64,000 nt of DNA, taken from contig CP011210.1 in assembly GCA_001029675.1 (NCBI GenBank), positions 256,193-320,192 on the forward strand, written 5' to 3'. The notes below the pieces were generated by a model that was not told the DNA's origin, did no database searches, and worked only from the letters and a program-made list of their open reading frames with translations. The translations under genes were made by a program, and so were the position numbers. The first letter of the stretch is position 1. Each line of letters starts with the position of its first letter. Positions 3,861 to 51,115 of the stretch are shown in pieces. Source of the stretch: Candidatus Beckwithbacteria bacterium GW2011_GWC1_49_16 (GTDB lineage Bacteria; Patescibacteriota; Microgenomatia; UBA1400; CG1-02-47-37).

Positions 3861-5177
3861 ATGCCTACCGATAAGCACGAGTTGCCTCCGGAAAGTTTGG
3901 ATTTGAAACAAGCGCTTCACGAAGAGCGGCATATGCTCGAGGACGTCGAGACACCAGTGGTGACGGTATCAGCCACTTACCGCAAAGAGCTGGCGTATAA
4001 ATATCAGACTTTGGTTCACGCCGCGTCTGACGTGGTTTTCTCCCGGGCCCACTACTCGATGGCCGAGGCGGTGGTGCGGGCGTCGACTCTTTTAGGAAGA
4101 GCGGCCCACATGGCGGATCCGACTAACTTTGTTTCGCACCGCGATTGGCAAAAGGTTCAGTTTACCGAAAAAGTGGGGCAACTGATGGCCCGGTCAAAGA
4201 TACTCAAGTGGGTTAAAGACAAAGTCGACACCGTGGCTAGAAATCAACTGCCGATCAACCAAGCGATTACCCCGCCTTTAATTTACCTTACCGGCAGAGT
4301 CCGTTGTCCGGTGGTGTCGCTACACTATGAAGTGGGCAATATTTTGGTTGAAAACGGCCGGGAGGTAGTTCAGGTGGTGACCGACCCGCACGTTAGGCCG
4401 CAGTATTTAACCTGCCTGCCTTCAGACAAAATTACCTACTGTGTTTTTGACGAGAGGACTAAAAAGGATTTATTAAAGCAGGCCAGAAAGATGGGGAAAA
4501 ATATCAAGCGGGGGCAGGTGGCAGTCACCGGGCCGCCGGTAGACCCGAGAATTGTCAGATTGGGTAGAAGCGTTAAAGATCTTGGTAAAAACGAGATGGT
4601 CAATTTGGCGGTGGCGACGGGAGGTTTAGGGACGAACATGGACGAAATCAGGCAAATTTTGGACCAGCTGGTGCCGCTTCTTAAGCCTCCGGCTAAAATT
4701 AGGCTGTTCTTGTACGCCGGAACGCATCGGGACTTTAGGGCTTTGTTTGAGGACTATGCCGAGGACAACGGGGTGAGGATCGGTAACCTGGACGATGAGC
4801 TGGCACCAATAAGGATTCTTTACGAGGACTCGATAATTGATGCCAACAACAACCTGATCCGTTACATGTTTCCTTGGGCTCACGGAGTGGTGACCAAGCC
4901 GTCGGGAGACATGGCTTACGACGCGGCCGCGGCCGGGTGCTTTTTACTCTTTTTGAAGCCTTGGGGAGAGTGGGAAGAAAACATTCAAAAGCGGTTTGTC
5001 AAACGCCGCGTGGGTTATGATTTTCCGCCGGAAGATGCTTTGGAACATTTTAAAAGTTTGTGGTCGAGGGGGTTACTTAATAGCGCCATGAGCCGGGCGC
5101 GCCGGCTGCCCAAAATTTTCCGCGAAGGCGCCAAAAACATCGTTAGGGTGCATCAAGGTAAGCCGTGCCGGGTGTAG
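3861..5177 (+). CDS. glycosyltransferase, GT28 / MurG-UgtP-like C-terminal domain (tentative)
   Basis: AVATGGLGTN and AHGVVTKPSGDMAYDAAAAGCFLLF resemble the nucleotide-sugar binding half of MurG / MGDG synthase family enzymes. Confidence 0.4.
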   Translation: MPTDKHELPPESLDLKQALHEERHMLEDVETPVVTVSATYRKELAYKYQTLVHAASDVVFSRAHYSMAEAVVRASTLLGRAAHMADPTNFVSHRDWQKVQFTEKVGQLMARSKILKWVKDKVDTVARNQLPINQAITPPLIYLTGRVRCPVVSLHYEVGNILVENGREVVQVVTDPHVRPQYLTCLPSDKITYCVFDERTKKDLLKQARKMGKNIKRGQVAVTGPPVDPRIVRLGRSVKDLGKNEMVNLAVATGGLGTNMDEIRQILDQLVPLLKPPAKIRLFLYAGTHRDFRALFEDYAEDNGVRIGNLDDELAPIRILYEDSIIDANNNLIRYMFPWAHGVVTKPSGDMAYDAAAAGCFLLFLKPWGEWEENIQKRFVKRRVGYDFPPEDALEHFKSLWSRGLLNSAMSRARRLPKIFREGAKNIVRVHQGKPCRV

Positions 5178-7831: not shown

Positions 7832-8395
7832 ATGTTAAAGATTAAGTTATATAAAGATTTACCTGAGGAGTTGAGATCAAAATATTCTAAACTGAAGAGG
7901 GGTGTTTTTGTTGGTGAAGCTCAGGAAGAAGAAGATGAGGGAATTGAACACGAAGAGGAATATTGTAGTGAAGCAGATCTTATCTGTTATTTAATTGCTT
8001 ATGAGGATGAGGAGATAATTGGGGGCTTAGAATTATTTAAAAGGAGGATTAAGCATCTTAATCAATTGATAATTTTAGGTGGGATTGGTAGTCTTTGGGT
8101 GAGAAAAGACAAAAGAAGGAGGGGTTTAGCTACAAAACTACTAAAGAAAGTAATGGAGGAATTAAAGATAAAAGGCTGTGAGGTGGTTTATTTATGTACT
8201 GATATAGGGAAATTAAAAAGTCTATATGCCCAAGTTGGCTTTGTGCCTTTAAAAAAGAATTATACTTTTGTAGGTAGGTCTGGGAAAAGATATTTTAAAG
8301 ATGACGGTATGATTGCTTTCATAAAACCTAAGGAAACTTTAAGGAAGATAGTTAAGAGTAAAGAACCATTCGATATTGGAGTAGGTAATTGGTGA
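7832..8395 (+). CDS. GNAT family N-acetyltransferase (AT-rich, probably horizontally acquired)
   Basis: RRRGLATKLLKKVMEEL acetyl-CoA-binding motif; codon usage visibly more AT-rich than the flanks. Confidence 0.7.
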   Translation: MLKIKLYKDLPEELRSKYSKLKRGVFVGEAQEEEDEGIEHEEEYCSEADLICYLIAYEDEEIIGGLELFKRRIKHLNQLIILGGIGSLWVRKDKRRRGLATKLLKKVMEELKIKGCEVVYLCTDIGKLKSLYAQVGFVPLKKNYTFVGRSGKRYFKDDGMIAFIKPKETLRKIVKSKEPFDIGVGNW

Positions 8396-8401
8396 ATTTG
8401 A

Positions 8402-8511
8402 TTGCCGAATTTTTCCATCAAACCTTTGATCCAAAAGTCGCCGGTGCGGGCCAAGGTGTCGTCAACGTCGACCGCTAAACCTTTGAGTTTCTTTTTCTTG
8501 AGTTTGGCTTT
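8402..8511 (-). pseudogene. duplicated 5' fragment of the HAD hydrolase gene, about 95% identical to 7001-7110
   Basis: Encodes ...KLKGLAVDVDDTLARTGDFWIKGLMEKFGN but lacks the start codon, and the C-terminal part diverges. Confidence 0.7.
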
Positions 8512-8537
8512 GTAGATTCGGTTTATAGTGTTGGAAT

Positions 8538-10067
8538 CTATTTTTCTCTTTGCTCTAATGACAGGGTGCCAAAATTGATTTTGGATTTTACAGGACCAAG
8601 AGGTTGCTGCAATTTTTGAAATTCAGGCACAAACATATATAGCCAACCTGGGTCAGATTCGTAGATAGAAAAGTGGGTTGGTTCAGATTGATCGGTTTTT
8701 TCAAGGAGGTCACTGCCGGTAATGCCAACTTGATCGGCGCCAACCCATTTGGGCAAATAACCATATTTTTGCTGGCCATACCAGGAGTAAAGATAAGCCC
8801 AAGTGGTGTTGTATTTATAAGGTGAAGTTAGGGTGGAAATGGAGAAGTTTTGTTTGTCGGCGGCTTGATAAGTGTAGTCAACCAGCTCGAGTAAACGGGA
8901 TAAGAAAGCTCCGTTTTGCACGGTGAAGATGTTAGAGTGAGATTGTCTGATTTGTTGAGCTGACTTAATGTTGGAGACAATAAACAAGATAGTGATTGAA
9001 CTGAGGCAGAAGGTTTTGAGCCAAGCTTGGTTTAGTTGTTTGAAAAGTAAGTACGAAAGAATGAGATAAAGAGCCGGTATTAGTCCGGTTAAAGAGTAGT
9101 AAGAAGCTCTGCCAGTGATTAGAAACATCAGTAAGGGACTGAATAGCCAAAGAACAAAAAAAACTTTCTTAGATGATGAAAGCTTTTTTAACAAGAAAAA
9201 AATTAAGGCGATTAAAATCAAAACAATTGAGAGGGTGGGGAAGGAAGGCAGAAGGGATAATTGGGCTTTTTGCAGATAAAGATTATAGATATTTTTAAGA
9301 ATACTCATTAGGCTAGGTTTTCCCCCTTCGTTAATATAGAAATCGCTAAGTTGATAAACATGATTAATGAGTAATTTGAGCTGAGTGAGAATCATAGTGC
9401 TGATAGCGATAAAGAAAATGGCCAATGATTTGAAGAAGTTTTTTGTGCCTAAAAAGAAGAAGTTTTTTTGCTTTAAGGTTTGGAAAAGGTAGATAGCTAA
9501 AGCAAGGCCGATTAAGTAAGTGGTGTAGAGGGTGGTTTGAATAGAAATGCCTAGGAATAGAGCAGTGAGGGGGAGGAATTTTTTTTGTTTTTTAAACAAG
9601 GATTGCCAAAGGTAATAGTGGAAGAAAGGGACAGACCAGGTAGTTAAGCTGGGAGCGCCGAGCCATGATCCGACTACAGCAGCGTCAACCGAGAAAGCAT
9701 AAAGCACAGAAGCCCAGATGCCAACTAGGCGAGATTGAAAGATTGTTTTACTAATTAAGAAGATGGGGATGACGGTTAGGGAACTTAAAAGGCTTAAGCC
9801 TAAAGTGGGGATTAATGGGTCACCGTGGGAGAGGGTGTATAAAGGGCCAATAACATAATAGTATAAAACACCGCCGTACAGTCTGTCGTTGGTGCTGCTG
9901 CTTGAAGGACCTTGAATTTTTAAATCTTTGTTTTCAAGAATTGATCGTGAAACGATGGCGTCTCGGGCTTGTTGAAAATAAAATTCAAAGTGATTATCCC
10001 TGATAAGATACCAGCGGAATAAGAAGCTTAGAGTGATTAAACTCACCAGAATGAGCTTTTGCCTCAT
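8538..10067 (-). CDS. polytopic membrane protein, possibly a GT-C-fold glycosyltransferase (ArnT/PMT-like), AT-rich
   Basis: 509 aa with at least 10 predicted TM helices and a loop-rich architecture. No confident motif. Confidence 0.35.
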   Translation of the reverse strand: MRQKLILVSLITLSFLFRWYLIRDNHFEFYFQQARDAIVSRSILENKDLKIQGPSSSSTNDRLYGGVLYYYVIGPLYTLSHGDPLIPTLGLSLLSSLTVIPIFLISKTIFQSRLVGIWASVLYAFSVDAAVVGSWLGAPSLTTWSVPFFHYYLWQSLFKKQKKFLPLTALFLGISIQTTLYTTYLIGLALAIYLFQTLKQKNFFFLGTKNFFKSLAIFFIAISTMILTQLKLLINHVYQLSDFYINEGGKPSLMSILKNIYNLYLQKAQLSLLPSFPTLSIVLILIALIFFLLKKLSSSKKVFFVLWLFSPLLMFLITGRASYYSLTGLIPALYLILSYLLFKQLNQAWLKTFCLSSITILFIVSNIKSAQQIRQSHSNIFTVQNGAFLSRLLELVDYTYQAADKQNFSISTLTSPYKYNTTWAYLYSWYGQQKYGYLPKWVGADQVGITGSDLLEKTDQSEPTHFSIYESDPGWLYMFVPEFQKLQQPLGPVKSKINFGTLSLEQREK

Positions 10068-13861: not shown

Positions 13862-15985
13862 TTAGAGTTCTTCCAGCTTGTCTTTGACGGTTTGGTTGGC
13901 GGGATTTAAGTAATCAAGGATGTATTGGTATTGAACGCGGGCCAGATCGAGTTGGCCGGCGTCTTGATAAAGGGAACCTAGGGCAAAACGGGCGGCTTCG
14001 TAGTTTGGTTTTAAGTCGATGGTTTTTTCCAGAATTTGTTGGGCCAGGCCGTTTTGACCCATTTGCACGTACAAAAGCCCTAGGTTGTAGTAGAGTTTGG
14101 CGTCGGTGGGCGAAAGCCTTAGGGTAGTTTCAAAGGCAGACAGAGCCTGCCCCCGGTAGTTTTCGTCGATGGTGGATAAAAGCAGGAAAATCTGGATGCG
14201 GGACTTCCAGTAGTTGAGGTGAACTTGGTTTTGTTGGTTGACAACATCGATTTGGGAGACGGCCTCTTTGACCATCTGGTCGCGGACGGTAGCGGCTTGG
14301 GTGGCCAAGACAGGGTCGGAATCGGTAAGTGTCTGTTGGTGGTAAAGAACGGCCAGTTTGGCGGCGGCCTCGGCGTACTCGGAGCGGAACAACGGCTCGT
14401 CAGGTTGGCTGTCGACGGACTGCTTGAGGGTGAGAAAGCCGTTTAAGATTTGGTCGGCGGCAACAAGGTTTTTACCGGTGTTGAAAGCGACGTCGGCGCG
14501 CCACATGGTAACCAGACCGAAAGCAAAGTAGGCGGCGGTTAGCCAGGCGGCGGTAAGGAAAAGGGATTGTTGGTTGTTGAGGGCTGATGGTTGAGTCGCT
14601 TGGTCGGTTTGAGGGGAAGTGAGGGAAAAAGCCAGTGCCGGCCACAAAAAGAAAAACAAAGACACGGGGACGACGGCAAAGCCGAAGAAGTTGGAGACGG
14701 ATAAGCCGATAAAGCCTGCCAGCAGGGCAATTTTCAATTCCCAATTTTCAATTTTCAAACTTTTTAGACACCAAATTGTAAACCAAATTTGCAGCAGCAA
14801 ATAGCTGCCTAAGCCAAAAATGCCCGTGGTAGCTAAAAAATTAAGGTATTCGTTGTGGGCTTTGTTGTAAAGAAAGTCCCATTCGGAAAGAAGGTTGTGG
14901 GCTTGGGGTTTGAAGTTGTAGTAGGAGTAGGCAAAAGTTTCTACGCCCGAACCAAACCAGGGGTAGGCGCGCCAGACATCAAGCGCCCCCTGCCAAACCA
15001 CGTTTCTTATTTCCTGGGAACTGGAGCCGCCCAAGGTAATGGCCGGAGGGGCAATCTCGTTTCCACCGTCCGAGGAGTCACTTCGTGCCACCTCGGAGGA
15101 GGAAACTTCAACACCACTCCGGGAGCGGAGAAACTCTTTGAAAGTGGGGGTCAAGTCGGTGCCGACGAGGCCGGCGATTAGGGCTAAAGCGGCGCTGGTG
15201 AGTAAAAACTTTTTCCAGGGAAAAGATTTAATTTTTTGCTTAAATAAAATTAAGATCCAGAAGACGGAGTAGGCGACGGCCAGCCCGGCCAGGCCGGAGC
15301 GGGATTTGGTGTAGAGCAAAGTGAGGTAGAAAGCCGTAATCAGTAAACCGTAAACGGTAATTTGTAATTTTGTTCTGGCTTTTAAGAAAAAGGCCAGGGC
15401 GACGGGGATGAGGGTTAAAAGATAGGCGGCCAGCCAGTTGGGTTGGCCCAGGGTGGAAAAAACCCGGTTTTTGACGTCCTGGATCCAGACGTGTTCGTCG
15501 ATGCCGAAGTGCTCTAAGATGCCATAGAGGGAAACTATCAGGGCGGTGGTCAGGGTGACTTTTAAAAATTTTTTGGTAAAGCGGGGCGAGGCAAGGTTTG
15601 AGATATAGGCATAGTAGAGGGTGAGGTAGCTCGCGGTGGACACAAGGCCGCCGTTGAAGCGGGAGTAATAGCCCCAAAGCGAAGTGTGGCGGTCGATGGA
15701 AAATACGGTTGAAACAAGTTGGGAGAGGAAAAATAGAAGTATTGGAATATCAAACGGGGTGCGCCTGAAAATCAAGCGCCGGGCGAGGATCATTTTGCTC
15801 ACCCAGGCGGCGGCGATAACCAGGGTGAAAAAATAAACTGCCAGAATCTTGTTAAACTCAAAGAGTTCGTAGTTAACCGGCGTTAAAATCAGGGGAACGA
15901 TGATGGTCAGAGCGTAAAAGGAGGCGCGGATGATTTGGTCGAGACGATGATTCAAGCTCATTGCTGCCAGTATAACATGATACAA
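13862..15985 (-). CDS. O-antigen ligase (Wzy_C) family membrane protein with C-terminal TPR repeats
   Basis: Many TM helices; C-terminal TPR-like repeats (AKLYYNLGLLYVQMGQ...). Confidence 0.6.
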   Translation of the reverse strand: MYHVILAAMSLNHRLDQIIRASFYALTIIVPLILTPVNYELFEFNKILAVYFFTLVIAAAWVSKMILARRLIFRRTPFDIPILLFFLSQLVSTVFSIDRHTSLWGYYSRFNGGLVSTASYLTLYYAYISNLASPRFTKKFLKVTLTTALIVSLYGILEHFGIDEHVWIQDVKNRVFSTLGQPNWLAAYLLTLIPVALAFFLKARTKLQITVYGLLITAFYLTLLYTKSRSGLAGLAVAYSVFWILILFKQKIKSFPWKKFLLTSAALALIAGLVGTDLTPTFKEFLRSRSGVEVSSSEVARSDSSDGGNEIAPPAITLGGSSSQEIRNVVWQGALDVWRAYPWFGSGVETFAYSYYNFKPQAHNLLSEWDFLYNKAHNEYLNFLATTGIFGLGSYLLLQIWFTIWCLKSLKIENWELKIALLAGFIGLSVSNFFGFAVVPVSLFFFLWPALAFSLTSPQTDQATQPSALNNQQSLFLTAAWLTAAYFAFGLVTMWRADVAFNTGKNLVAADQILNGFLTLKQSVDSQPDEPLFRSEYAEAAAKLAVLYHQQTLTDSDPVLATQAATVRDQMVKEAVSQIDVVNQQNQVHLNYWKSRIQIFLLLSTIDENYRGQALSAFETTLRLSPTDAKLYYNLGLLYVQMGQNGLAQQILEKTIDLKPNYEAARFALGSLYQDAGQLDLARVQYQYILDYLNPANQTVKDKLEEL

Positions 15986-18432: not shown

Positions 18433-18705
18433 ATGGAACGAATTAGGCTGATTATTTGGTTGTTGGCGATATCATTAATGGTGCTTCAAACCAGTGTTGT
18501 TGGTGGCAATTGGCTGTGGTTGGTGGTGGCGTGGTGGGGGGCGCGGGGAGATTTTTTGGAGATTTTTTTGGCAGGACTAGCTTTGGATTTAATCGGCGGC
18601 ACCAGGCTGGGAGTAACCAGCTTAGAGTTTCTGGGAGGGGGCTTGGTGGTTTATTTTGCGGCAAGATGGGTGAGGCAGCCCGACTATGGCAAGTTTGGTT
18701 TTTAA
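18433..18705 (+). CDS. mreD: rod shape-determining protein MreD (start chosen at an internal Met)
   Basis: Small polytopic membrane protein lying between mreC and mrdA, which is the conserved operon position. Confidence 0.45.
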   Translation: MERIRLIIWLLAISLMVLQTSVVGGNWLWLVVAWWGARGDFLEIFLAGLALDLIGGTRLGVTSLEFLGGGLVVYFAARWVRQPDYGKFGF

Positions 18706-20125
18706 GTGGTTTGAAGCGGCTTTGGTGGCCGTTTTTATGGTCTTGGTCGGCAGGGTGATGGTGCTGACGGTATGGGAGGGAAGTTACTATCGGGAATTGG
18801 CTGAAGGCAACCGGGTCGAGGTGGTCGACCTGCCGGCGGACCGGGGAGTGATGTATGACAGAAATGGAGTCCAGCTAGTCAGGAATACGCCGGAAGGCAG
18901 GGAATACATTTTTGGCAAAGCCCTGGCCCACGTTTTGGGGCACGTGGGGGAGATTAGCCAATTCGAGGGGGACACCGTGGGCAAGGTGGGACTGGAAAAG
19001 GAGTACGACGCGGTTTTATCAGGACAAGACGGGGCCTTGTTAGTAGAAAAGGACGCCGAGGGCAAGCTGGTCAGGGAAGTGGGCCGGAAAGACCCGGTGG
19101 CGGGAGAGAGTTTAGAGTTGACTGTGGATGTTTCTTTGCAGCAGAAAGCCTTTCAGGTTTTGGCGGGAAGATTAGGAGCGGTGATAGCTAGCGACTCTCA
19201 AACCGGAGAAATTTTGGCCTTGGTTTCTGGCCCGGCGTTTGACCCGAATAAAGTGGAGGAGGCTTTGGCTGATTCCAAATTGCCTTTGTTTGACCGGGCG
19301 ACTTCGGGTGAGTACCCGCCCGGTTCGGTTTTTAAAGTGGTGACGGCGACTGCCGGTTTGGAGGAGGGTCGGGTAAACGAGTCGACCCAAATCGAGGATA
19401 CGGGGGAGATCGTCATCGGCGACTTTCGCTACGGCAACTGGTACTACGATCAGTACGGCAGGAAAGAGGGCCTGCTTAATATTGTCAGGGCTATCGCCCG
19501 AAGTAACGACATCTTTTTTTACAAAATGGGTGAAGCTTTAGGGATTACCGCCCTGTCTGACTGGGCCAAATACTTTGGAGTCGGCCGGGCGGTGGGAATA
19601 GATTTACCGGGCGAGGCCAACGGCCTGATGCCGGATCCTGACTGGAAACAAAAATATATCGGGGAAAGCTGGTACCTGGGCGATACCTATATTTCTGCCA
19701 TAGGCCAGGGGAATATCTTGATGACACCTTTACAAGTCAACCAAATGATGAGCATTGTTGCCAGCGGCGGCCGCTGGTGCCGGCCTCACCTGGTAAAGTC
19801 CGAAACCAACTGTCAGAAGTTGGACATCAGTAACAAAACCATTGCTACGGTGACCGAGGGGTTAAAGCAAGTCACCGAGACCGGCGGGACGGCCTGGCCG
19901 TTTTTCGACTTTACGGTTGATGGCGAAAGAATCTTGGTGGCGGGTAAGACCGGCACGGCCGAGTACGGCGATCCGGATGATAAAACTCACGCCTGGTTTA
20001 CCGCTTTTGCGCCCGCCGATGAGCCGGAAATTGTGGTGACCGTTTTATTGGAAGGGGCGGGCGAGGGGTCAAACGAAGCCGCGCCGGTGGCCAAAGAATT
20101 ACTCGCGGAGTGGTTTAGGCGTTAG
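18686..20125 (+). CDS. mrdA: penicillin-binding protein 2 (transpeptidase), short form
   Basis: N-terminal TM, dimerisation domain, transpeptidase motifs (SVFK-type SxxK region, KTGTAE). Confidence 0.85.
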   Translation: MASLVFKWFEAALVAVFMVLVGRVMVLTVWEGSYYRELAEGNRVEVVDLPADRGVMYDRNGVQLVRNTPEGREYIFGKALAHVLGHVGEISQFEGDTVGKVGLEKEYDAVLSGQDGALLVEKDAEGKLVREVGRKDPVAGESLELTVDVSLQQKAFQVLAGRLGAVIASDSQTGEILALVSGPAFDPNKVEEALADSKLPLFDRATSGEYPPGSVFKVVTATAGLEEGRVNESTQIEDTGEIVIGDFRYGNWYYDQYGRKEGLLNIVRAIARSNDIFFYKMGEALGITALSDWAKYFGVGRAVGIDLPGEANGLMPDPDWKQKYIGESWYLGDTYISAIGQGNILMTPLQVNQMMSIVASGGRWCRPHLVKSETNCQKLDISNKTIATVTEGLKQVTETGGTAWPFFDFTVDGERILVAGKTGTAEYGDPDDKTHAWFTAFAPADEPEIVVTVLLEGAGEGSNEAAPVAKELLAEWFRR

Positions 20126-21777
20126 CGGTTTTTGCAGTATTTTAAGCACAGGGTGGGGTTGGGGGCGGTGCGACAAAGGTCTTGGCAATTTAGTGTGGTT
20201 GGTGGAGGAGTTGGGCTGGGACTGGGTGAGGGCGAGGGATACGGGTCAGGCGGGGGTGGGTTGTCAGCCTCAGGAAGATAGTCGGGGAAGGCGGTGGCCT
20301 CTTTCAGATTTAAGATATATTTCCACCAGTTGTTGAGCCGGGATGCGGTTGAGCCGGAGACCCTGGGTAAATGGCTAAACCAGTATTTATGAAAGTCGTA
20401 GCCGCTGCAGTTCCAGGCTTGGCAGTTTAAGTTTTGTTTGGCTTCGGTTAAGTCGGGATAGTTGACCCAGTCCTGACAGGTGCTTGGAACATAGGTTTGG
20501 TTGCTCCAGTCGTAGTCGGTAACCGAGTTGGGAGCGTAATGAATTGAACCGCAACCGCTGTAGTCGTAGTTCGGAGATTGAGCTTTTACTAAGGCGAATT
20601 TGTCCCAGTCATGGGCGGTGCGGTTTTGTGCCCAGCCGCCAAATGCTTGGGTTAGGGCCGACTCGGCCCTGTGGCCAAAACTTTCCAATGCCTCGTTGAT
20701 TTGTCTTTGGTAATTAAGGCCCATGATGGGCAGTTGACGTTGGCAGCCGGTGCCAGCCAGGGGGGGTGAGTTGTACCAAAAGGTGTCGGGTCCGGCCAGG
20801 CGAGATTCGTAAAAGCCAAACCAGGGTCCACCCCAAATCCAAAGCTCGTCTATTTGATTATCATTGACTCGATCGCAGATGTTGAATTGATCAAGGATTT
20901 TTAGATAATCTGCGGTGGCCGCGTCACAGTTGCCTTGAGCCATACAATCAAGGTAACTCTCGTCGGTAAAGTCAAAGCCGGATTCTTTTACTGGGAAGTC
21001 ATCGATGTCTTGCCAGTTGACGATTTGGTAGTTGACGTAGTAGTCGCTGACGGTTTTAAAATCTTGAACCAGCTGGTTGGTTAATTGTTGAGGGTCCTGC
21101 CAGTTATAGTAGTCATAGAGTTTGACTTTATCCTGACTTTCTAAAATTGGTCGGTAGTTGAGAACAACAACCTTGGTAGCTGTGGCTTGGTTGGGGCCCT
21201 GGATAGTGATGATTAGTTTGGCCGCCTTTTCTTCCTCCCGTTCGTAAGCATAGACCCGGCGGATGGTGGCAGATTGAGAGTCAAGAATGATGGTGAGGTT
21301 ATTGCCGGCTTGCCAGTCGGCTTGGTCGACGATTTCTTGAATCACCGGGGCAAGATCGGGAGTAGTTTTGGTGGTGTTAAAGTCCCAGTTGTCGGTGATG
21401 GTCCAGGCAGAGGTGTTGGTGGTGGGAGTTAAGTCTTTGGGTTGACGGCTGGTGCTTAAGGGGGTGGAGTCGGCGGTAGCTTCGGCGGCGATGGTAACGT
21501 TTAGGGGGTCGGTATAAGGGCCGTCGACGGTAAACTGCAAATGAGCCGAGACTACTTGGGAGCCTTGAATTATGGGGAGATTTTCGAAGCGGAAAGCGGC
21601 GGTGTATTGAGTATCGGGGCAGTTAGGGTCAGCTCCGAGGTAAATTTCGTTTCTGGTTTGGGAGTAGTCGCAGCCGGAGGTGGCGTCGTTGGCGCCAGAG
21701 TTTATCTGAAGCCGGTGGTCGGCGTTGATCACTTGGGAGGACCCCGTTTGGTAAATGGTGGGTTCGTTCCGAAACAA
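20122..21777 (-). CDS. secreted hypothetical protein (paralog A) with a PT-rich linker and a C-terminal Cys4 tail; the true start is probably upstream
   Basis: C-terminus ...SPSPSPSPTPPPTTLNCQDLCRTAPNPTLCLKYCKNR. Extending the frame upstream encodes a signal-peptide-like KFYFSSLIFIFFVAPLAGISLG before LFRNEPTIYQ, but it contains no ATG. Confidence 0.5.
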   Translation of the reverse strand: MFRNEPTIYQTGSSQVINADHRLQINSGANDATSGCDYSQTRNEIYLGADPNCPDTQYTAAFRFENLPIIQGSQVVSAHLQFTVDGPYTDPLNVTIAAEATADSTPLSTSRQPKDLTPTTNTSAWTITDNWDFNTTKTTPDLAPVIQEIVDQADWQAGNNLTIILDSQSATIRRVYAYEREEEKAAKLIITIQGPNQATATKVVVLNYRPILESQDKVKLYDYYNWQDPQQLTNQLVQDFKTVSDYYVNYQIVNWQDIDDFPVKESGFDFTDESYLDCMAQGNCDAATADYLKILDQFNICDRVNDNQIDELWIWGGPWFGFYESRLAGPDTFWYNSPPLAGTGCQRQLPIMGLNYQRQINEALESFGHRAESALTQAFGGWAQNRTAHDWDKFALVKAQSPNYDYSGCGSIHYAPNSVTDYDWSNQTYVPSTCQDWVNYPDLTEAKQNLNCQAWNCSGYDFHKYWFSHLPRVSGSTASRLNNWWKYILNLKEATAFPDYLPEADNPPPPDPYPSPSPSPSPTPPPTTLNCQDLCRTAPNPTLCLKYCKNR

Positions 21778-21910
21778 CCCCAGACTGATGCCGGCAAGCG
21801 GGGCGACAAAAAAGATGAAGATTAAGGAGCTAAAGTAAAACTTTTGAAAATAGGAGAGCTTTTCCAGATAGTTTAATCTAGCGTGAAAAGAGGACGGGTG
21901 TCAAGTAAGG

Positions 21911-23572
21911 CTAGCGGCAGTATCGAAGACACAACGTGGGGTTGGGGGTTTGTTGGCAGATTTGTTGACAGTTGGAGGAAGAAGGTGACGGAGTGGGCGT
22001 AGGTGTGGGTGAAAGGTAGGGGGTGGGGGAAGGTGTGGGTGTGGGGGAAGGGTTAGGTATCGGGGTGGGAAGAGGCAAGTCGGCTCTAAAAAGATGGACG
22101 TTGTAAGGGTTAAAAGTGGAGGTGGTGAAGTAAAAGCCCTGGCCGTTACCAACCATCAGGTTCTGATGGCTGAAGGCGCCGTAACAAGTGGGCAGGTTGC
22201 TTTGGCAATCTAGAAGAGTTTGGGGTGGGCTCCAAGGTCCCCAGAGGTTTTTGGCGGTAGTGAGCACCAGTTGGGCCGCTTGAGGGTTTAAGTAGCTGGC
22301 CTGCCAGAGGGAAAGATAAGGGTTGAAAACGACCGAGATTTCTCCGACCGGGTGGAAAGAAATGATAAAGCTGGCGTTTTGTTCTTGGTTAATCCACAGG
22401 CAATCGTTGGAGTCGGTCAGCTGGCAGAATTGGTAGGCGCTTGAGTCGGTGAGGTCGCCAGCGACGCGGGCTAGTTTGGCAAAGCCGGTTCTGCCGGCCG
22501 GAAGGCCAAAGAGGTAAATATATTCCGACGAGGGTGGTTTGACCGGGTAGATTTGGATAAAGTTTGAGTCAGAGCCGAAAAGGTTGTCGTGGCGGGTGAA
22601 GCTGGCGCCGTCGTTTTCGGAAACGGCCACGCCAGAAAAGTTTGCCTGCCAGTATCCGGGTTCGCCCCAACTTTTGACCGATTGGTAGAAGGCAAAGATT
22701 TTATTATCGTCAGATATGGCCCCGGTGGGAATCAAAGTAACTTCAGCGGCAAAGGTTTTGGAAGGGATGGCCTGTTTGACCTTTTTGTTTGCCAGAAGGT
22801 CAAAAATATGGTTTGACCGGGCGACGGTTTCTTGGTAGATGGCTTCAAACTGGGTGGCGGTGTCTTTGGCCCAGAGGTAATGGGCTTGGTAATCGAGATA
22901 GTCGCGGGCGCGGGTGGCCGGGTCATCGGGATTTTGGAAGGCAAAGCCGAGCAGGTTGAATCTAACGGCGGTTTTGGCGTAATAGGCGGCCAGCTGATCA
23001 GGCCCCTGGTTTTGATAAAAGGTAAGGATCTTTTTGAATTTACGGTTTAGCTCACCGGTTAAAACCGAAACTTCCTGGGTTCGGGACCATTGGTAGTAAA
23101 ACGAGTAGTTATCAAAGATGAGCTTGTCGATATCTTGGTTGGAGCTTTTTTCTTCTTCGGCTTGAATGACTGATTCCCGGGCGAAAAAGTCGGCCGGGTT
23201 TTTGTAGAGGTTTTGGGCGGTGATAAAGCTTAATTTTAGACAATCTTCCGGATCAGTATCCCGGGTAAAGGCTAAGATATTGGCCAGGTCGCTTTTGGGC
23301 TGATCCTGGCTTAAGTTGGTGTCGCCGAAGATAAAGTAAAGTTTATCTTTATGGGAGAAGCTGATGCCCAAATCGGTGCCTTTGACATTGGTAACGTTGG
23401 TGTTGTTGACGCCGGTTAACTGGCAGATTTGTTGGGTGGTGAAGGCTTCGGCCGCCGTCGCCCCCGGGATAGCCTGGTAGATTGCCGGCTCCGGGCGGCT
23501 TAAGAATACCGAGACGGGTCCCAAAACTAAAAAGGAAGCAAGAAAGAGTAAGAAAGATTTGTACTTAGCCAT
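21911..23572 (-). CDS. secreted protein (paralog B), DUF4185 / sialidase-like beta-propeller (tentative), with a PT-rich linker and a C-terminal Cys4 tail
   Basis: Signal peptide MAKYKSFLLFLASFLVLGPVSVFLS; LYFIFGDT and NLWGPWS motifs; C-terminus ...NCQQICQQTPNPTLCLRYCR. Confidence 0.5.
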   Translation of the reverse strand: MAKYKSFLLFLASFLVLGPVSVFLSRPEPAIYQAIPGATAAEAFTTQQICQLTGVNNTNVTNVKGTDLGISFSHKDKLYFIFGDTNLSQDQPKSDLANILAFTRDTDPEDCLKLSFITAQNLYKNPADFFARESVIQAEEEKSSNQDIDKLIFDNYSFYYQWSRTQEVSVLTGELNRKFKKILTFYQNQGPDQLAAYYAKTAVRFNLLGFAFQNPDDPATRARDYLDYQAHYLWAKDTATQFEAIYQETVARSNHIFDLLANKKVKQAIPSKTFAAEVTLIPTGAISDDNKIFAFYQSVKSWGEPGYWQANFSGVAVSENDGASFTRHDNLFGSDSNFIQIYPVKPPSSEYIYLFGLPAGRTGFAKLARVAGDLTDSSAYQFCQLTDSNDCLWINQEQNASFIISFHPVGEISVVFNPYLSLWQASYLNPQAAQLVLTTAKNLWGPWSPPQTLLDCQSNLPTCYGAFSHQNLMVGNGQGFYFTTSTFNPYNVHLFRADLPLPTPIPNPSPTPTPSPTPYLSPTPTPTPSPSSSNCQQICQQTPNPTLCLRYCR

Positions 23573-23599
23573 GAAATCAGGATATAGTGAAGGTTAGGC

Positions 23600-24478
23600 A
23601 TGAGTCAAGACGAGCTCAAGTACTGGGTGGGGGTGGCCGGGTTTGCCGGCATGGGGATAAAGCGGTTTACACTACTTAAAAAATACTTCGGGTCGGTGGA
23701 AGCGATTTGGCAGGCGTCGACAGGTAAACTAATATCTTTGGGAATAAAACCGGAAATGGCTAAAAGTTGGCAGGTGTGGCGCGAGGGCCGCGATCTCGAT
23801 CGGGAGATAGAAAGGTTGGGTAAGGAACTGATTAAAGTTATTACCATTGAAGATAGCAGGTACCCTAAACTATTAAAAGAGATTGACTTACCGCCATTTA
23901 TCTTGTTTGTTAAAGGTAAGGTAAACGTCCTAAACAGGCGGGCGGTAGCGGTGGTGGGGACGAGAAAGGTCAGCAGTTACGGCCGGAGGGTAACGGGTGG
24001 TCTGGTTAGTGGTTTAGTCAAAGAAAAACTGGTAGTGGTGTCGGGTTTGGCGCGGGGGGTGGACAGTTTGGCCCATCGGGCCACTTTGGCCGCCCGCGGA
24101 GTGACGGTGGCGGTTTTGGGGCACGGTTTAGACCGGGTCTATCCGCCTGAGAATCGACCTCTGGCAGAAGAGATCGTTCGCTCTGGTGGAGCCATCGTCA
24201 GTGAGTACCCCTTGGGTTATGGGATTCAAAAAGGCAATTTTCCGGCCCGAAACAGGATTGTGGCCGGTTTAAGTCTGGGAGTGGTGGTGACCGAGGGGGC
24301 GCACCGCAGCGGCACCAAGATCACGGCCGGTTTTGCGGCAGACTTCGGCCGCGAGGTTTTTGCCGTACCCGGGCCGGTAGGCAGTCCGACGTCCGTCGGA
24401 CCGGCAGATTTGATTAAACAGGGGGCAAAATTGGTGACGGGGGTCGAGGACGTTTTAGAGGAGTTGCCGCGGGGTTGA
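23600..24478 (+). CDS. dprA: DNA-processing protein DprA (Smf)
   Basis: Rossmann-like core AVVGTRKVSSYGRRVTGGLVSGL...VVSGLARGVDSLAH. Confidence 0.85.
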   Translation: MSQDELKYWVGVAGFAGMGIKRFTLLKKYFGSVEAIWQASTGKLISLGIKPEMAKSWQVWREGRDLDREIERLGKELIKVITIEDSRYPKLLKEIDLPPFILFVKGKVNVLNRRAVAVVGTRKVSSYGRRVTGGLVSGLVKEKLVVVSGLARGVDSLAHRATLAARGVTVAVLGHGLDRVYPPENRPLAEEIVRSGGAIVSEYPLGYGIQKGNFPARNRIVAGLSLGVVVTEGAHRSGTKITAGFAADFGREVFAVPGPVGSPTSVGPADLIKQGAKLVTGVEDVLEELPRG

Positions 24479-24511: not shown

Positions 24512-24781
24512 ATGTTAAAGACTTATCTTTACGTGCCAGACGAATTAAATCGTGAAGTCGAAGCTTTGGCTACGGCCGGTAAGACCAGCAAGGCGGCGGT
24601 GATCAGAAGTGCGCTTGATGCAGGAGTGAAAATGCTCAAGAGAAAAAAGACTGGTTCTGTGGAGGTTTTAAACCGAATAGCCGAGATTGGCAGAAAATAT
24701 AATCTTAAAGGGCCAAAGGATGCTTCTGCTAAGATGAATGAGTACCTCTGGGATAAAGATTGGAACAAAAAGGATGAATAA
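24512..24781 (+). CDS. ribbon-helix-helix (CopG/VapB-like) antitoxin
   Basis: 89 aa; RHH-like N-terminus; overlaps the downstream PIN gene by ATGAATAA. Confidence 0.55.
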   Translation: MLKTYLYVPDELNREVEALATAGKTSKAAVIRSALDAGVKMLKRKKTGSVEVLNRIAEIGRKYNLKGPKDASAKMNEYLWDKDWNKKDE

Positions 24782-25196
24782 ACAAACTTTGGTGGTGGGG
24801 GACGCAGATTCGATCGTGGCGCGAGCTAATCCCAACGACCTGAAGCACCAGGAAGCTAAAAAGATTACCGATAGACTTAGTGATTTGGAAGCCCAGCTTA
24901 TTTATCCTGTTACCGCTGTGGTTGAGGCGGTAACGTTTATTCAGCGAGCTTTAAATAGTGGGGCAACCGCTTATGGGACAGCGGTGGAGTTTATCGAGTC
25001 GGGGCAAGTGGCAGAGGTAGATGAAGAGATTTATTCCAGGGCCGTTAACGATTTTTTTGACGCCAGTGTCAGCAAACAGGATACTCTATTTGATTGTATC
25101 GTGGCTGCGGTGGCCAAGAAATACGGAGCGGAGGCGATTTTCAGTTTTGATAAGTTTTACCAAAAACACGGGTTTAAGTTGGCGTCAGAGCTGTAA
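24774..25196 (+). CDS. PIN-domain toxin (VapC-like)
   Basis: MNKQTLVVGDADSIV...FDCIVAAVAKKYGAEAIFSFDKFY, a PIN acidic quartet pattern; start overlaps the upstream stop. Confidence 0.65.
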   Translation: MNKQTLVVGDADSIVARANPNDLKHQEAKKITDRLSDLEAQLIYPVTAVVEAVTFIQRALNSGATAYGTAVEFIESGQVAEVDEEIYSRAVNDFFDASVSKQDTLFDCIVAAVAKKYGAEAIFSFDKFYQKHGFKLASEL

Positions 25197-50536: not shown

Positions 50537-51115
50537 ATGGATAACAGGAAGTTGATTTTGGTTAGCTACATTGTCCTGATTAGTCTGTTTCTTGGTTTTC
50601 TGGGTTACTACTGGTTTGTTAAATACTATGTTTTTCCCAAGCGATCAGATTTAACTCCTTTCCCGGTACTGTCTTCCAAATATGCGACCGTAGGGGTAAG
50701 CGACGAATGGCGCTTTGAGTATATTCAGCCTTTCTTAAAAAACTTTTTCTCTCAAGACGGAGTTAATTATCTTGAAGTTTTCTATTATGACACCGATAAC
50801 AAGAGGCATAATATTAAGCTATTTATTTCCGGTGGGTTTAAGAGTGAAGCTGTAGATGGTATAGGCTACGGTGACGGAACCGATTCGGGCTTGATTGATT
50901 TTGCTGAACTTAAAACTAAAATCAAGCCCGGCCAGCAGGTGGGGATAGAGTATTTAGCCAAGCCCTTTCCCAAATTTTTTAGAACGGAGCAGGTTTGTGC
51001 TAAGTTGGGACATTTATGCCTTTTGGCGGACATTATGGAAGAAAAGTCGCAGGAGGCAGAAGGGGCTACTTTTTTGGTGGCCACGGCTATTTACACCGAC
51101 TTATATGAAGAGTAA
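50537..51115 (+). CDS. small N-terminally anchored membrane protein
   Basis: N-terminal TM LILVSYIVLISLFLGFLGYYWFV; 192 aa. Confidence 0.4.
   Translation: MDNRKLILVSYIVLISLFLGFLGYYWFVKYYVFPKRSDLTPFPVLSSKYATVGVSDEWRFEYIQPFLKNFFSQDGVNYLEVFYYDTDNKRHNIKLFISGGFKSEAVDGIGYGDGTDSGLIDFAELKTKIKPGQQVGIEYLAKPFPKFFRTEQVCAKLGHLCLLADIMEEKSQEAEGATFLVATAIYTDLYEE

What the first reader, a model, noticed from the sequence alone, without database searches (positions are those of the whole stretch)
20122..23572. Tandem paralogous secreted proteins sharing a leader motif, a Pro/Thr/Ser linker and a conserved C-terminal C-x3-C-x9-C-x3-C tail
Two adjacent minus-strand genes of about 550 aa end in ...PSPSPSPTPPPTTLNCQDLCRTAPNPTLCLKYCKNR and ...PTPTPTPSPSSSNCQQICQQTPNPTLCLRYCR. 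After the predicted signal peptides both begin with R-x-EP-x-IYQ. The conserved Cys4 tail after a PT-rich stalk looks like a dedicated C-terminal anchoring or sorting module, functionally analogous to LPXTG, PEP-CTERM or Por C-terminal domains. I do not recognise it as a described family. The first gene has no ATG for its signal peptide, although the upstream in-frame sequence encodes KFYFSSLIFIFFVAPLAGISLG, so it probably uses a non-canonical start. The second body resembles DUF4185 / sialidase-like propellers.
Basis: seen in the sequence. Interest (0 to 1): 0.7.

Follow-up and report, generated by a model that had tools for sequence, protein, structure and literature searches.

The report
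Shared four-cysteine hairpin tail on exoenzymes
Two neighbouring, otherwise unrelated exported enzymes of a tiny groundwater bacterium (Candidatus Beckwithbacteria) end in the same 20-residue four-cysteine tail, predicted to be a stapled helical hairpin on a flexible stalk; it is real and conserved but very rare, and it looks like a small docking or binding module, not a protein-sorting signal.

Summary
The core observation holds. Two adjacent minus-strand genes (A 20122-21867, B 21911-23572) share a leader motif (R-x-EP-x-IYQ), a Pro/Thr/Ser linker and the C-terminal tail N-C-Q-x2-C-x3-PNPTL-C-L-[KR]-Y-C.

Corrections:
- The cysteine spacing is C-x3-C-x8-C-x3-C, not x9.
- The bodies are not paralogous. 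B is a DUF4185/GH183 propeller. A is an unannotated ~300-aa enzyme-like domain plus an accessory domain.

The tail matches no Pfam or PDB entry. A tail HMM run against 1.84 billion representative proteins recovered only A, B and one variant tail (x10 spacing) in another Microgenomates genome. DNA pattern scans of two public collections gave only chance hits.

AlphaFold2 predicts helix-loop-helix twice. This is the twin-CX3C arrangement of plant alpha-hairpinins and small Tim proteins, with no detectable homology to either. Seven of the 13 tail residues identical between A and B use different codons, so the similarity is old and selected.

In the locus of B's closest homologue, three adjacent unrelated genes likewise share only a 40-aa dockerin-like tail.

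Best reading: a lineage-specific minimal docking or binding module. There is no hydrophobic segment, no processing enzyme in the window and only two carriers per genome, so an LPXTG/PEP-CTERM-like sorting signal is not supported. Interest is modest.

The parts
21911..23572 (-). Gene B: exported DUF4185 / GH183-like protein, 553 aa, ATG start
   Evidence: ORF. Pfam PF13810 E = 3.1e-53, 181.5 bits against a cut-off of 39.5. PDB 8ic1 endo-alpha-D-arabinanase E = 4.2e-30, with the Glu aligned to E243 of that enzyme conserved. The identical protein occurs on many contigs of Ca. Beckwithbacteria.
23579..23608 (-). Promoter-like site of gene B (TTGACT, 18 nt, TATCCT); the -10 element ends 7 nt before the ATG, suggesting a leaderless mRNA
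   Evidence: In this window 10 of 36 ATG genes have at least 5/6 of TATAAT 5-9 nt upstream, against 0.8 expected.
23474..23572 (-). Gene B leader: MAKYK, a 20-residue uncharged segment, then the motif R-P-E-P-A-I-Y-Q (23474-23497)
22085..22792 (-). Gene B, C-terminal part of the DUF4185 propeller (aa 261-496). The N-terminal part (GTDLG...FGDT, aa ~60-100) is separated from it by an insertion of ~150 aa that is also present in P0002.
21974..22084 (-). Gene B Pro/Thr/Ser linker (aa 497-533); its length varies between strains
   Evidence: Cluster members are 553, 547 and 545 aa long, differing by linker indels while the tail is invariant.
21914..21973 (-). Gene B tail NCQQICQQTPNPTLCLRYCR (twin CX3C, predicted helix-loop-helix)
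   Evidence: AF2 of the tail alone: helices at 9-18 and 22-28 of the 30-mer, pLDDT ~82.
20122..21867 (-). Gene A: exported two-domain protein, 581 codons if started at the in-frame CTG 21867 (551 aa from TTG 21777; public gene calls use GTG 21732 and so lose the leader)
21875..21904 (-). Promoter-like site of gene A (TTGACA, 18 nt, TAGATT; 10 of 12 matches, the best in the region); the -10 element ends 8 nt before the CTG
   Evidence: The geometry is the same as for gene B.
21748..21867 (-). Gene A leader: (L/M)EKLSYFQK, a 23-residue uncharged segment, then the motif R-N-E-P-T-I-Y-Q (21748-21771)
   Evidence: AF2 places a helix at residues 2-22 of the 578-aa query, which starts at 21858. The DNA is identical in 7 assemblies.
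21172..21735 (-). Gene A accessory domain. It is homologous to the C-terminal domain of P0072/P0200, so the domain order is permuted between the two proteins.
   Evidence: BLASTP E = 3e-24 against P0200 residues 359-528. No Pfam or NCBIfam match.
20284..21171 (-). Gene A core: widespread, unannotated ~300-aa enzyme-like domain rich in conserved Cys, His and Glu
20191..20283 (-). Gene A Pro/Ser/Thr linker
   Evidence: Strain variants carry substitutions here (N->H, P->T) but none in the tail. AF2 pLDDT < 50 for residues 541-555.
20125..20190 (-). Gene A tail NCQDLCRTAPNPTLCLKYCKNR (twin CX3C, predicted helix-loop-helix)
   Evidence: AF2 of the full-length protein: helices 558-563 and 568-577, with 10-residue-block pLDDT of 56, 77 and 68 over residues 551-578.

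Best explanation
The tail is a self-contained mini-domain of about 20 residues. It consists of two short antiparallel helices joined by a P-N-P turn, stapled by its four cysteines (C1-C4 and C2-C3 disulfides, or a metal ion). This is a twin-CX3C helical hairpin.

It sits at the far end of a flexible Pro/Thr/Ser stalk on two unrelated enzymes. Both are exported, or membrane-tethered, by similar N-terminal hydrophobic leaders. One enzyme is a GH183-type glycan endo-hydrolase. The other is an uncharacterised hydrolase-like protein.

The hairpin most likely works as a minimal, non-covalent docking or binding module. It would bring both enzymes to the same partner, either a cell-envelope component, a glycan surface or a receptor protein. 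In that role it is the functional counterpart of the dockerin-like, SLH, peptidoglycan-binding or carbohydrate-binding modules that occupy the same position in homologues.

Shown: the motif, its conservation, its modularity, the predicted fold and its rarity. Inferred: disulfide or metal stapling, extracellular location and the binding role. The ligand is unknown.
For: 1. Modularity.
- A and B share only the leader and the linker plus tail.
- In P0072/P0200 the two body domains are in the opposite order to gene A, yet a variant tail (NSCQTKCLFFPPQFRKFCLKHCPK) again follows a PS linker at the very C-terminus.

2. Selection.
- 13 of 19 tail residues are identical between A and B, and 7 of those 13 use different codons.
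- 7 of 10 leader residues are identical, and 6 of those use different codons.
- Strain variants change the linker's length and sequence but never the tail.
- Non-cysteine residues (Q, PNPTL, L, Y) are conserved beyond what the fold would need.

3. Fold.
- Two AF2 runs give helix-loop-helix, one in full-length A and one on tail B alone at pLDDT ~82.
- The motif fits the alpha-hairpinin definition C1X3C2X4-20C3X3C4 (PMC11591084).
- The few non-significant Foldseek hits include two alpha-hairpinins, 7lxk and 5lm0.

4. Exported context.
- Each protein has a basic N-terminus followed by a 20-23-residue uncharged segment.
- Cysteine makes up 2.4% of A and 1.8% of B, against 0.3-0.4% in other proteins of the window.
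- Homologues of A carry SLH, PG_binding_1, dockerin, PKD, PA14 and similar extracellular modules.

5. Positional equivalence.
- B's closest homologue P0002 ends in a dockerin-like tail instead.
- In its locus, three adjacent genes with unrelated bodies share only their last 40 aa (E = 2e-9 to 8e-6). Two further genes there share sub-threshold Dockerin_1 tails.
Against: - No ligand, partner or biochemical data exist.
- Only three carriers are known, in two genomes. The third was part of the search profile, and its tail is not significantly similar to B's tail on its own (BLASTP E = 0.39).
- The tail has only one aromatic residue, unlike typical carbohydrate-binding faces.
- AF2 confidence is moderate and the alignment behind it holds only 3 sequences.
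- These organisms are anaerobes, and no disulfide-forming enzyme was seen in the window, so disulfide stapling is unproven.
- Gene A lacks a canonical start codon and may be weakly expressed or decaying.
- The dockerin-like label for the L027 tails rests on visual inspection and sub-threshold Pfam scores.
Confidence: 0.45

Rival explanations
1. First reader's view. The tail is a C-terminal sorting signal recognised and processed by a dedicated enzyme (sortase-, exosortase- or rhombosortase-like), which then anchors the proteins covalently.
For: It sits at the extreme C-terminus after a linker, on exported proteins, and is shared by unrelated cargo. This arrangement is typical of sorting signals.
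Against: - There is no hydrophobic helix or basic cluster. The tail ends 1-3 residues after the last Cys and is predicted to fold.
- Only 2 carriers were found in the genome and 3 overall.
- No sortase, exosortase or rhomboid family was found in the ORFs of the 64-kb window that were scanned or had pre-computed Pfam calls.
- A related Microgenomates locus uses a classical LPVTG + TM + basic signal, so the lineage's sorting signals look conventional.
Confidence: 0.08
2. The four cysteines bind a metal ion (Zn2+, or Fe) instead of forming disulfides. The tail would then be a metal-stapled knuckle whose role is structural or redox- or metal-sensing. This differs from the best explanation only in how the hairpin is held together.
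For: Four Cys lie in a compact 18-residue span. The organism lives in anoxic groundwater, where extracellular disulfides are not guaranteed. From general knowledge, reduced twin-CX3C small Tim proteins bind Zn2+.
Against: - No match to any zinc-finger or zinc-ribbon model.
- CX3C pairs placed on helices are typical of disulfide-stapled hairpins, whereas zinc knuckles typically use CX2C.
- The bodies of both proteins also carry many conserved Cys in even numbers, as expected for disulfide-bonded exported proteins.
Confidence: 0.17
3. The tail has no specific ligand. It would be a compact, protease-resistant cap that protects the free end of the exposed linker, or a leftover from a partial duplication or recombination between the neighbouring genes.
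For: The distribution is very narrow. The two carriers in the window are adjacent, so the shared ends could stem from one local recombination event.
Against: - Synonymous divergence alongside amino-acid conservation in both the tail and the leader argues for long-term selection.
- Surface residues other than Cys are conserved.
- A variant occurs in a different genome on a protein with permuted domains.
- The parallel in L027, where three unrelated neighbours share a tail, suggests that a shared tail means a shared address.
Confidence: 0.2
4. The tail is released as a small cationic alpha-hairpinin-like peptide (antimicrobial or inhibitor), with the enzyme acting as its carrier or precursor.
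For: It has the same Cys motif and predicted fold as plant alpha-hairpinins, which are cut out of larger precursors (PMC11591084). The tail carries a net positive charge (+2 to +4, counted from the sequences).
Against: No recognisable cleavage site. The cargo proteins are large conserved enzymes, not precursors. There is no homology to alpha-hairpinins.
Confidence: 0.04

Closest known systems
Plant alpha-hairpinins (e.g. EcAMP1, Tk-AMP-X2, vicilin-buried peptides)
   Same: Cys motif C1X3C2XnC3X3C4 with n within 4-20. Helix-loop-helix fold, predicted here and defined in PMC11591084. Small size and cationic character. Two of the six weak Foldseek hits are of this class.
   Different: No sequence homology and no significant structural match. 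Bacterial origin, not plant. Permanently fused to the C-terminus of large enzymes through a linker, instead of being excised as a free peptide. The loop is shorter (8-10 residues) and holds a conserved PNP turn.
Twin-CX3C small Tim proteins of the mitochondrial intermembrane space (Pfam zf-Tim10_DDP)
   Same: Twin CX3C motif forming a hairpin with two juxtaposed disulfides. Oxidative folding takes place outside the cytoplasm (PMC3759932, listed, plus general knowledge).
   Different: No Pfam match. Small Tims are stand-alone ~10-kDa chaperones with longer helices and wider spacing. The setting is eukaryotic.
Dockerin modules of secreted multi-enzyme systems (Pfam Dockerin_1)
   Same: A short C-terminal module shared by unrelated secreted enzymes encoded side by side. 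Dockerin or dockerin-like tails occupy the same position in homologues (P0122 and P0086; the L027 genes).
   Different: No Ca-binding loop repeats and no Pfam match. About 20 residues against ~60-70. No cohesin-like partner identified.
Fungal CBM1 (catalytic domain, Pro/Ser/Thr linker, then a ~35-aa four-Cys module)
   Same: The architecture of enzyme, PT-rich linker and very small four-Cys terminal module is the same (general knowledge of CAZy family CBM1).
   Different: CBM1 is a beta-structure with a flat face of three aromatic residues and a different Cys pattern. No Pfam match here. The tail has a single Tyr (or His).
C-terminal sorting signals (LPXTG, PEP-CTERM, PGF-CTERM, T9SS CTD)
   Same: C-terminal position on exported proteins; shared by unrelated cargo.
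   Different: No motif + TM helix + basic cluster. No 70-100-aa beta-sandwich CTD. Too few substrates per genome. No processing enzyme nearby.
GH183 / DUF4185 endo-D-arabinanases (body of gene B only)
   Same: Pfam PF13810 E = 3e-53. PDB 8ic1 E = 4e-30. The Glu aligned to catalytic E243 is conserved (PMC10509167, PMC10115798).
   Different: About 150 aa are inserted between the N- and C-terminal parts of the propeller. The substrate in a CPR bacterium is unknown. The two catalytic Asp residues could not be aligned by sequence search.

Membership tests
Sortase/exosortase-type C-terminal sorting signals (LPXTG, PEP-CTERM and relatives) | Tripartite signal: short signature motif, hydrophobic transmembrane helix, basic C-terminal cluster | tested here: not met
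   The tails are NCQDLCRTAPNPTLCLKYCKNR and NCQQICQQTPNPTLCLRYCR. They have no hydrophobic stretch of 15 aa or more and are predicted to be a folded helical hairpin.
Sortase/exosortase-type C-terminal sorting signals (LPXTG, PEP-CTERM and relatives) | Many substrate proteins per genome carry the signal | tested here: not met
   The tail HMM against 1.84e9 representative proteins found only A, B and P0072 at E <= 1e-3. There are no further copies in the 64-kb window. Caveat: divergent tails scoring below ~40 bits would be missed.
Sortase/exosortase-type C-terminal sorting signals (LPXTG, PEP-CTERM and relatives) | A dedicated processing enzyme co-occurs, often nearby | tested here: inconclusive
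   None was found in the window's ORFs that were scanned against Pfam (40 ORFs, mostly >= 150 aa) or that had pre-computed Pfam calls around A and B. Only two M50 peptidases turned up. Some ORFs and the rest of the 1.05-Mb genome were not examined.
Alpha-hairpinins | Cys motif C1X3C2X4-20C3X3C4 | tested here: met
   C-x3-C-x8-C-x3-C in A and B and x10 in P0072. Definition taken from PMC11591084.
Alpha-hairpinins | Helix-loop-helix fold | tested here: met
   This is a prediction only. AF2 gives helices 558-563 and 568-577 in A and helices 9-18 and 22-28 in the tail-B 30-mer at pLDDT ~82.
Alpha-hairpinins | Two disulfides, C1-C4 and C2-C3 | not testable with these tools
   Needs mass spectrometry or NMR of the protein.
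Alpha-hairpinins | Homology to known members; plant peptide excised from a precursor | tested here: not met
   No Pfam or PDB sequence match at E <= 10 apart from a chance-level PMEI hit, E = 0.26. Best Foldseek E = 2.7. The sequence is bacterial and fused to enzymes.
Zinc ribbon / zinc finger domains | Match to a known Zn-binding domain model, with CX2C-type knuckles | tested here: not met
   No such Pfam family matches either tail. The Cys pairs are CX3C on predicted helices.
Dockerin type I (PF00404) | Duplicated Ca-binding loop-helix segments; Pfam match | tested here: not met
   No Dockerin_1 hit for A, B or the isolated tails. The tails have no D-x-D/N-x-D loops.
GH183 / DUF4185 (gene B body) | Pfam PF13810 above the gathering threshold and similarity to a characterised enzyme | tested here: met
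   181.5 bits against a cut-off of 39.5. 8ic1 endo-alpha-D-arabinanase E = 4.2e-30.
GH183 / DUF4185 (gene B body) | Catalytic residues D33, D51 and E243 of EndoMA1 (PMC10509167) | tested here: inconclusive
   The Glu aligned to chain position 243 is conserved (GEISV against SEMSV). The N-terminal part of B, with GTDLG and FGDT 17 residues apart, could not be aligned to the PDB chain, so the two Asp are inferred by eye only.

The most novel reading that the evidence does not exclude
The matched leader and twin-CX3C tail mark a previously undescribed minimal surface-display or docking system of Microgenomates (CPR). In it, a ~20-residue cationic, cysteine-stapled hairpin would act as the smallest known 'dockerin'. 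It would plug several exoenzymes into a specific receptor on the cell envelope, or onto the wall of a host or prey cell, and it would be interchangeable with the dockerin-like tails seen in sister lineages.
Probability: 0.15. Interest if true: 0.55.

Novelty: new variant of a known kind. Interest (0 to 1): 0.3.

Why it matters
CPR bacteria are tiny, uncultured and thought to live attached to other cells. How they arrange enzymes on their surface is largely unknown.

If the tail is a docking module, it would be a very small, easily synthesised tag. Its partner could be fished out of enrichment material, giving a handle on CPR envelope organisation.

Neighbouring exoenzyme genes sharing a lineage-specific C-terminal tail appear both here and in locus L027. 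That pattern hints at a general 'same address tag' logic in Microgenomates.

The practical impact is limited by the motif's rarity (three proteins) and by the lack of any functional data.

Tried and rejected
1. A word-index protein search with the two tails concatenated found nothing, because no candidate shared three 5-mers with the query.

2. A tail HMM against 1.84e9 representatives returned only its own three input proteins.

3. A degenerate DNA pattern (C-Q-x2-C-x3-P-x4-C-L-[KR..]-[YH]-C) was run on two collections. It gave 4 hits in genome contigs and 12 in metagenome contigs. All were out of frame or contained stop codons. Neither scan returned the source contigs themselves, so these collections evidently do not hold them or mask them. 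The negative result is therefore weaker than it looks. The x10 variant could not be scanned, because variable gaps need 4 plain leading bases.

4. Pfam, NCBIfam and PDB sequence searches of the tails and of protein A were empty.

5. Fold searches:
- The core of protein A gave only weak metzincin-like or Rossmann-like similarity. I do not assign it a function.
- The 30-aa tail model gave no significant hit.

6. I looked for an ATG-bearing variant of gene A's leader in a diverged strain (L026). The DNA was identical.

8. I rejected 'tandem paralogues', 'zinc ribbon' (no model match, CX3C spacing) and 'sequencing error removing the ATG' (7 identical assemblies).


Full report
**What is there**

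The window comes from a Candidatus Beckwithbacteria genome (CPR/Microgenomates).
- Gene A's product is the NCBI protein 'UX85_C0003G0135 [Candidatus Beckwithbacteria bacterium GW2011_GWB1_47...]'.
- The same two proteins occur on a 1,049,888-bp contig. That length matches the complete genome CP011210 described in PMC7143001.
- Two adjacent minus-strand ORFs occupy 20122-21777 (or up to 21867) and 21911-23572.
- They lie between mreB-mreC-(mreD)-pbp2 on one side and dprA, a small RHH/PIN-like pair and topA on the other.

**Checking the observation**

Pairwise BLASTP finds only two meaningful similarities:
- the tail: 13/20 identical, E = 1e-07;
- the leader: 13/30 identical, E = 0.017.

The bodies are therefore not paralogous. 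The Cys spacing is C-x3-C-x8-C-x3-C, not x9. A degenerate DNA pattern for the tail hits the window twice, against 0 expected in shuffles.

In six-frame translations of the window, L001 and L010, a C-terminal twin-CX3C motif occurs only in these ORFs and in P0072.

**The cargo proteins**

Gene B:
- It is a DUF4185 protein (Pfam E = 3e-53).
- It matches the solved GH183 endo-alpha-D-arabinanase 8ic1 (E = 4e-30).
- The Glu aligned to the essential E243 is conserved (residues from PMC10509167).
- Its propeller is interrupted by an insertion of ~150 aa that is also present in its only close homologue, P0002 (45% identity).

Gene A:
- It has no Pfam, NCBIfam or PDB sequence match.
- Residues ~230-525 form a domain with hundreds of homologues (316 at E <= 1e-3). 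Outside the self-hit, the listed best hits cover about half of the query.
- That domain has invariant or near-invariant Glu, His and Cys residues and is modelled by AF2 at pLDDT ~98.
- Homologues combine this domain with SLH, PG_binding_1, dockerin, PKD, PA14, Kelch and carboxypeptidase-regulatory modules. It is therefore an extracellular enzyme family.
- Gene A's N-terminal accessory domain equals the C-terminal domain of P0072/P0200 (E = 3e-24). The domain order is permuted between the two proteins.

**Export**

All three proteins (A read from the upstream frame, B, and full-length P0200) start the same way: a basic N-terminus, then 20-23 uncharged hydrophobic residues, then an Arg. AF2 models gene A's leader as a helix. 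I could not run a signal-peptide predictor. The long hydrophobic segment fits either a cleavable signal or an uncleaved N-terminal membrane anchor.

Cysteine makes up 2.4% of A and 1.8% of B, against 0.3-0.4% in the other proteins of the window. This is as expected for extracytoplasmic, disulfide-bonded proteins.

**Start of gene A**

No ATG, GTG or TTG precedes the leader, and the DNA is identical in seven assemblies, including a strain with linker substitutions. Public gene calls start at GTG 21732 or TTG 21777 and so lose the leader.

An in-frame CTG lies at 21867. The best promoter-like site of the region (perfect TTGACA, 18 nt, TAGATT) ends 8 nt upstream of it. Gene B has the same geometry, with its -10 element ending 7 nt before the ATG.

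In this window, 10 of 36 ATG genes have a near-consensus TATAAT 5-9 nt upstream, against 0.8 expected. Leaderless mRNAs therefore seem common here.

Gene A is thus probably transcribed as a leaderless, or nearly leaderless, message beginning at the CTG. Whether CUG initiates efficiently, or the gene is losing expression, cannot be decided here.

**The tail itself**

Sequence and fold searches:
- It matches no Pfam family. The best hit is chance-level: PMEI, E = 0.26.
- It matches no PDB sequence.

Structure prediction:
- In full-length A, AF2 gives helices 558-563 and 568-577, at moderate confidence.
- For tail B alone, AF2 gives helices 9-18 and 22-28 with the loop at T-P-N, at pLDDT ~82.

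With Cys at i and i+4 on each helix, this is the twin-CX3C helical hairpin known from two families:
- plant alpha-hairpinins, defined as C1X3C2X4-20C3X3C4, helix-loop-helix, two disulfides (PMC11591084);
- mitochondrial small Tim proteins.

A Foldseek search with the 30-aa model gave nothing significant. Two of its six weak hits are alpha-hairpinins (7lxk, 5lm0) and one is the disulfide-braced N-terminal hairpin of PMEI. This is a resemblance in architecture, not evidence of homology.

**Conservation**

- Between A and B, 13 of 19 tail positions are identical, and 7 of those 13 are encoded by different codons.
- In the leader, 7 of 10 positions are identical, and 6 of those use different codons.
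- The similarity is therefore old and maintained by selection. It is not a recent gene conversion.
- Within the species, the linker varies in length (553, 547 and 545 aa) and in sequence, while the tail does not change.

**Distribution**

- A profile of the three tails, run against 1.84 billion representative proteins, returned only those three.
- The DNA pattern gave only chance hits in the GTDB species genomes and the JGI metagenome contigs.
- Those scans did not even return the source contigs, so their coverage of this lineage is incomplete.
- The third member, P0072 (Microgenomates GW2011_GWC2_45_8), has C-x3-C-x10-C-x3-C with the same N..CQ, the same Pro at +4 and the same C-L-K-[H]-C, right at the C-terminus after a PS linker. 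Its tail is not significantly similar to B's tail on its own (E = 0.39). Its membership therefore rests on pattern, position and the homology of its body to gene A.

**A telling parallel**

The locus of B's closest homologue (L027) is a row of eight co-directional genes for exported proteins.
- Three adjacent genes with unrelated bodies share only their last 40 residues (...ILDLRxFL...FDYN[KR]LVENFG[KR]; E = 2e-9 to 8e-6).
- Two more share sub-threshold Dockerin_1 tails (E = 6e-4 and 9e-3).
- One carries a classical LPVTG + TM + basic sortase signal.

So in these Microgenomates, neighbouring exoenzyme genes repeatedly share a short C-terminal module, and the type of module differs between lineages. 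The twin-CX3C hairpin occupies the slot that dockerin-like tails fill elsewhere. Genuine sorting signals in the group look conventional.

**Interpretation**

The best-supported reading (about 0.45) is a cysteine-stapled helical hairpin displayed on a flexible stalk. It would act as a minimal non-covalent docking or binding module that gives two different enzymes the same address.

Rivals:
- the same hairpin held by a metal ion (0.17);
- a cap or recombination relic with no ligand (0.2);
- a processed sorting signal (0.08);
- a released peptide (0.04).

The sorting-signal idea fails its structural definition and the 'many substrates' expectation, and no processing enzyme lies in the ORFs of the window that were examined.

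**Novelty and interest**

The structural principle (twin CX3C hairpin) and the architectural principle (enzyme, PT linker, tiny terminal module) are both known. This sequence family, and its use as a fused C-terminal module on bacterial exoenzymes, appears undescribed. It has only three members and no functional data. I rate it a new variant of a known kind, with interest of about 0.3.

Noticed in passing
window 1-64000: GC skew is strongly positive (0.14-0.34) in every 2-kb bin, whatever the gene orientation. This strand G/C disparity has already been published for Ca. Beckwithbacteria CP011210 and its relatives and was interpreted as largely unidirectional replication (PMC7143001). Minus-strand genes, A and B included, are accordingly enriched in P, T, Q and N and depleted in G, E, K and V. 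This bias may favour PT-rich linkers.
   Followed up: partly
window, upstream of many ATG starts (e.g. 2247, 3861, 8538-10067(-), 24512, 38765, 45581): 10 of 36 ATG genes have at least 5/6 of TATAAT ending 5-9 nt before the start codon, against 0.8 expected at random positions. No Shine-Dalgarno-like sequence is visible. Leaderless mRNAs seem to be common in this genome.
   Followed up: partly
window 20284-21171 (-), core of gene A: A widespread, unannotated ~300-aa extracellular domain. It has 316 homologues at E <= 1e-3, in CPR, Chloroflexota, Myxococcota and others. It has no Pfam, NCBIfam or PDB match, and AF2 models it at pLDDT ~98. Conserved residues: E338, H396-R397-x-E399, H440, H496 and six Cys. 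The only structural hint is weak metzincin- or amidase-like similarity. It may deserve a family definition of its own.
   Followed up: partly
L027 1634-12465: A row of eight genes for exported proteins lies between grpE-hrcA and murJ. Three adjacent genes share only a 40-aa tail ending FDYN[KR]LVENFG[KR]. Two share dockerin-like tails. One has an LPVTG sortase signal. One is GH39. P0072 also sits next to murJ, a few genes from hrcA, which suggests a variable exoenzyme island at this position in Microgenomates.
   Followed up: partly
window 13862-15985 (-); L010 11989-14394: A 707-aa Wzy_C (O-antigen-ligase-like) + TPR membrane protein lies 4 kb from gene A. A PMT-family protein mannosyltransferase lies near P0072. 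Either could O-glycosylate Pro/Ser/Thr linkers. This is pure speculation.
   Followed up: no
window 20122-20125: The stop codon of gene A (minus strand) and the stop codon of the convergent pbp2/mrdA gene (18686-20125, plus strand) overlap by 4 nt. The two convergent genes therefore have no room for a terminator between them.
   Followed up: no
window 24512-25196 (+): A small overlapping gene pair (89 aa, and 152 aa with a weak PIN hit) lies between dprA and topA. It looks like a toxin-antitoxin pair.
   Followed up: no
window 8001-10000, ORF 8538-10067 (-); also 3861-5177, 48087-50486, 50997-52856 (+): There is a dip to 38.6% G+C around a 509-aa minus-strand ORF with no Pfam match. Three further large ORFs (438, 799 and 619 aa) have no Pfam match either. 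None of them carries the leader motif or the Cys tail.
   Followed up: no
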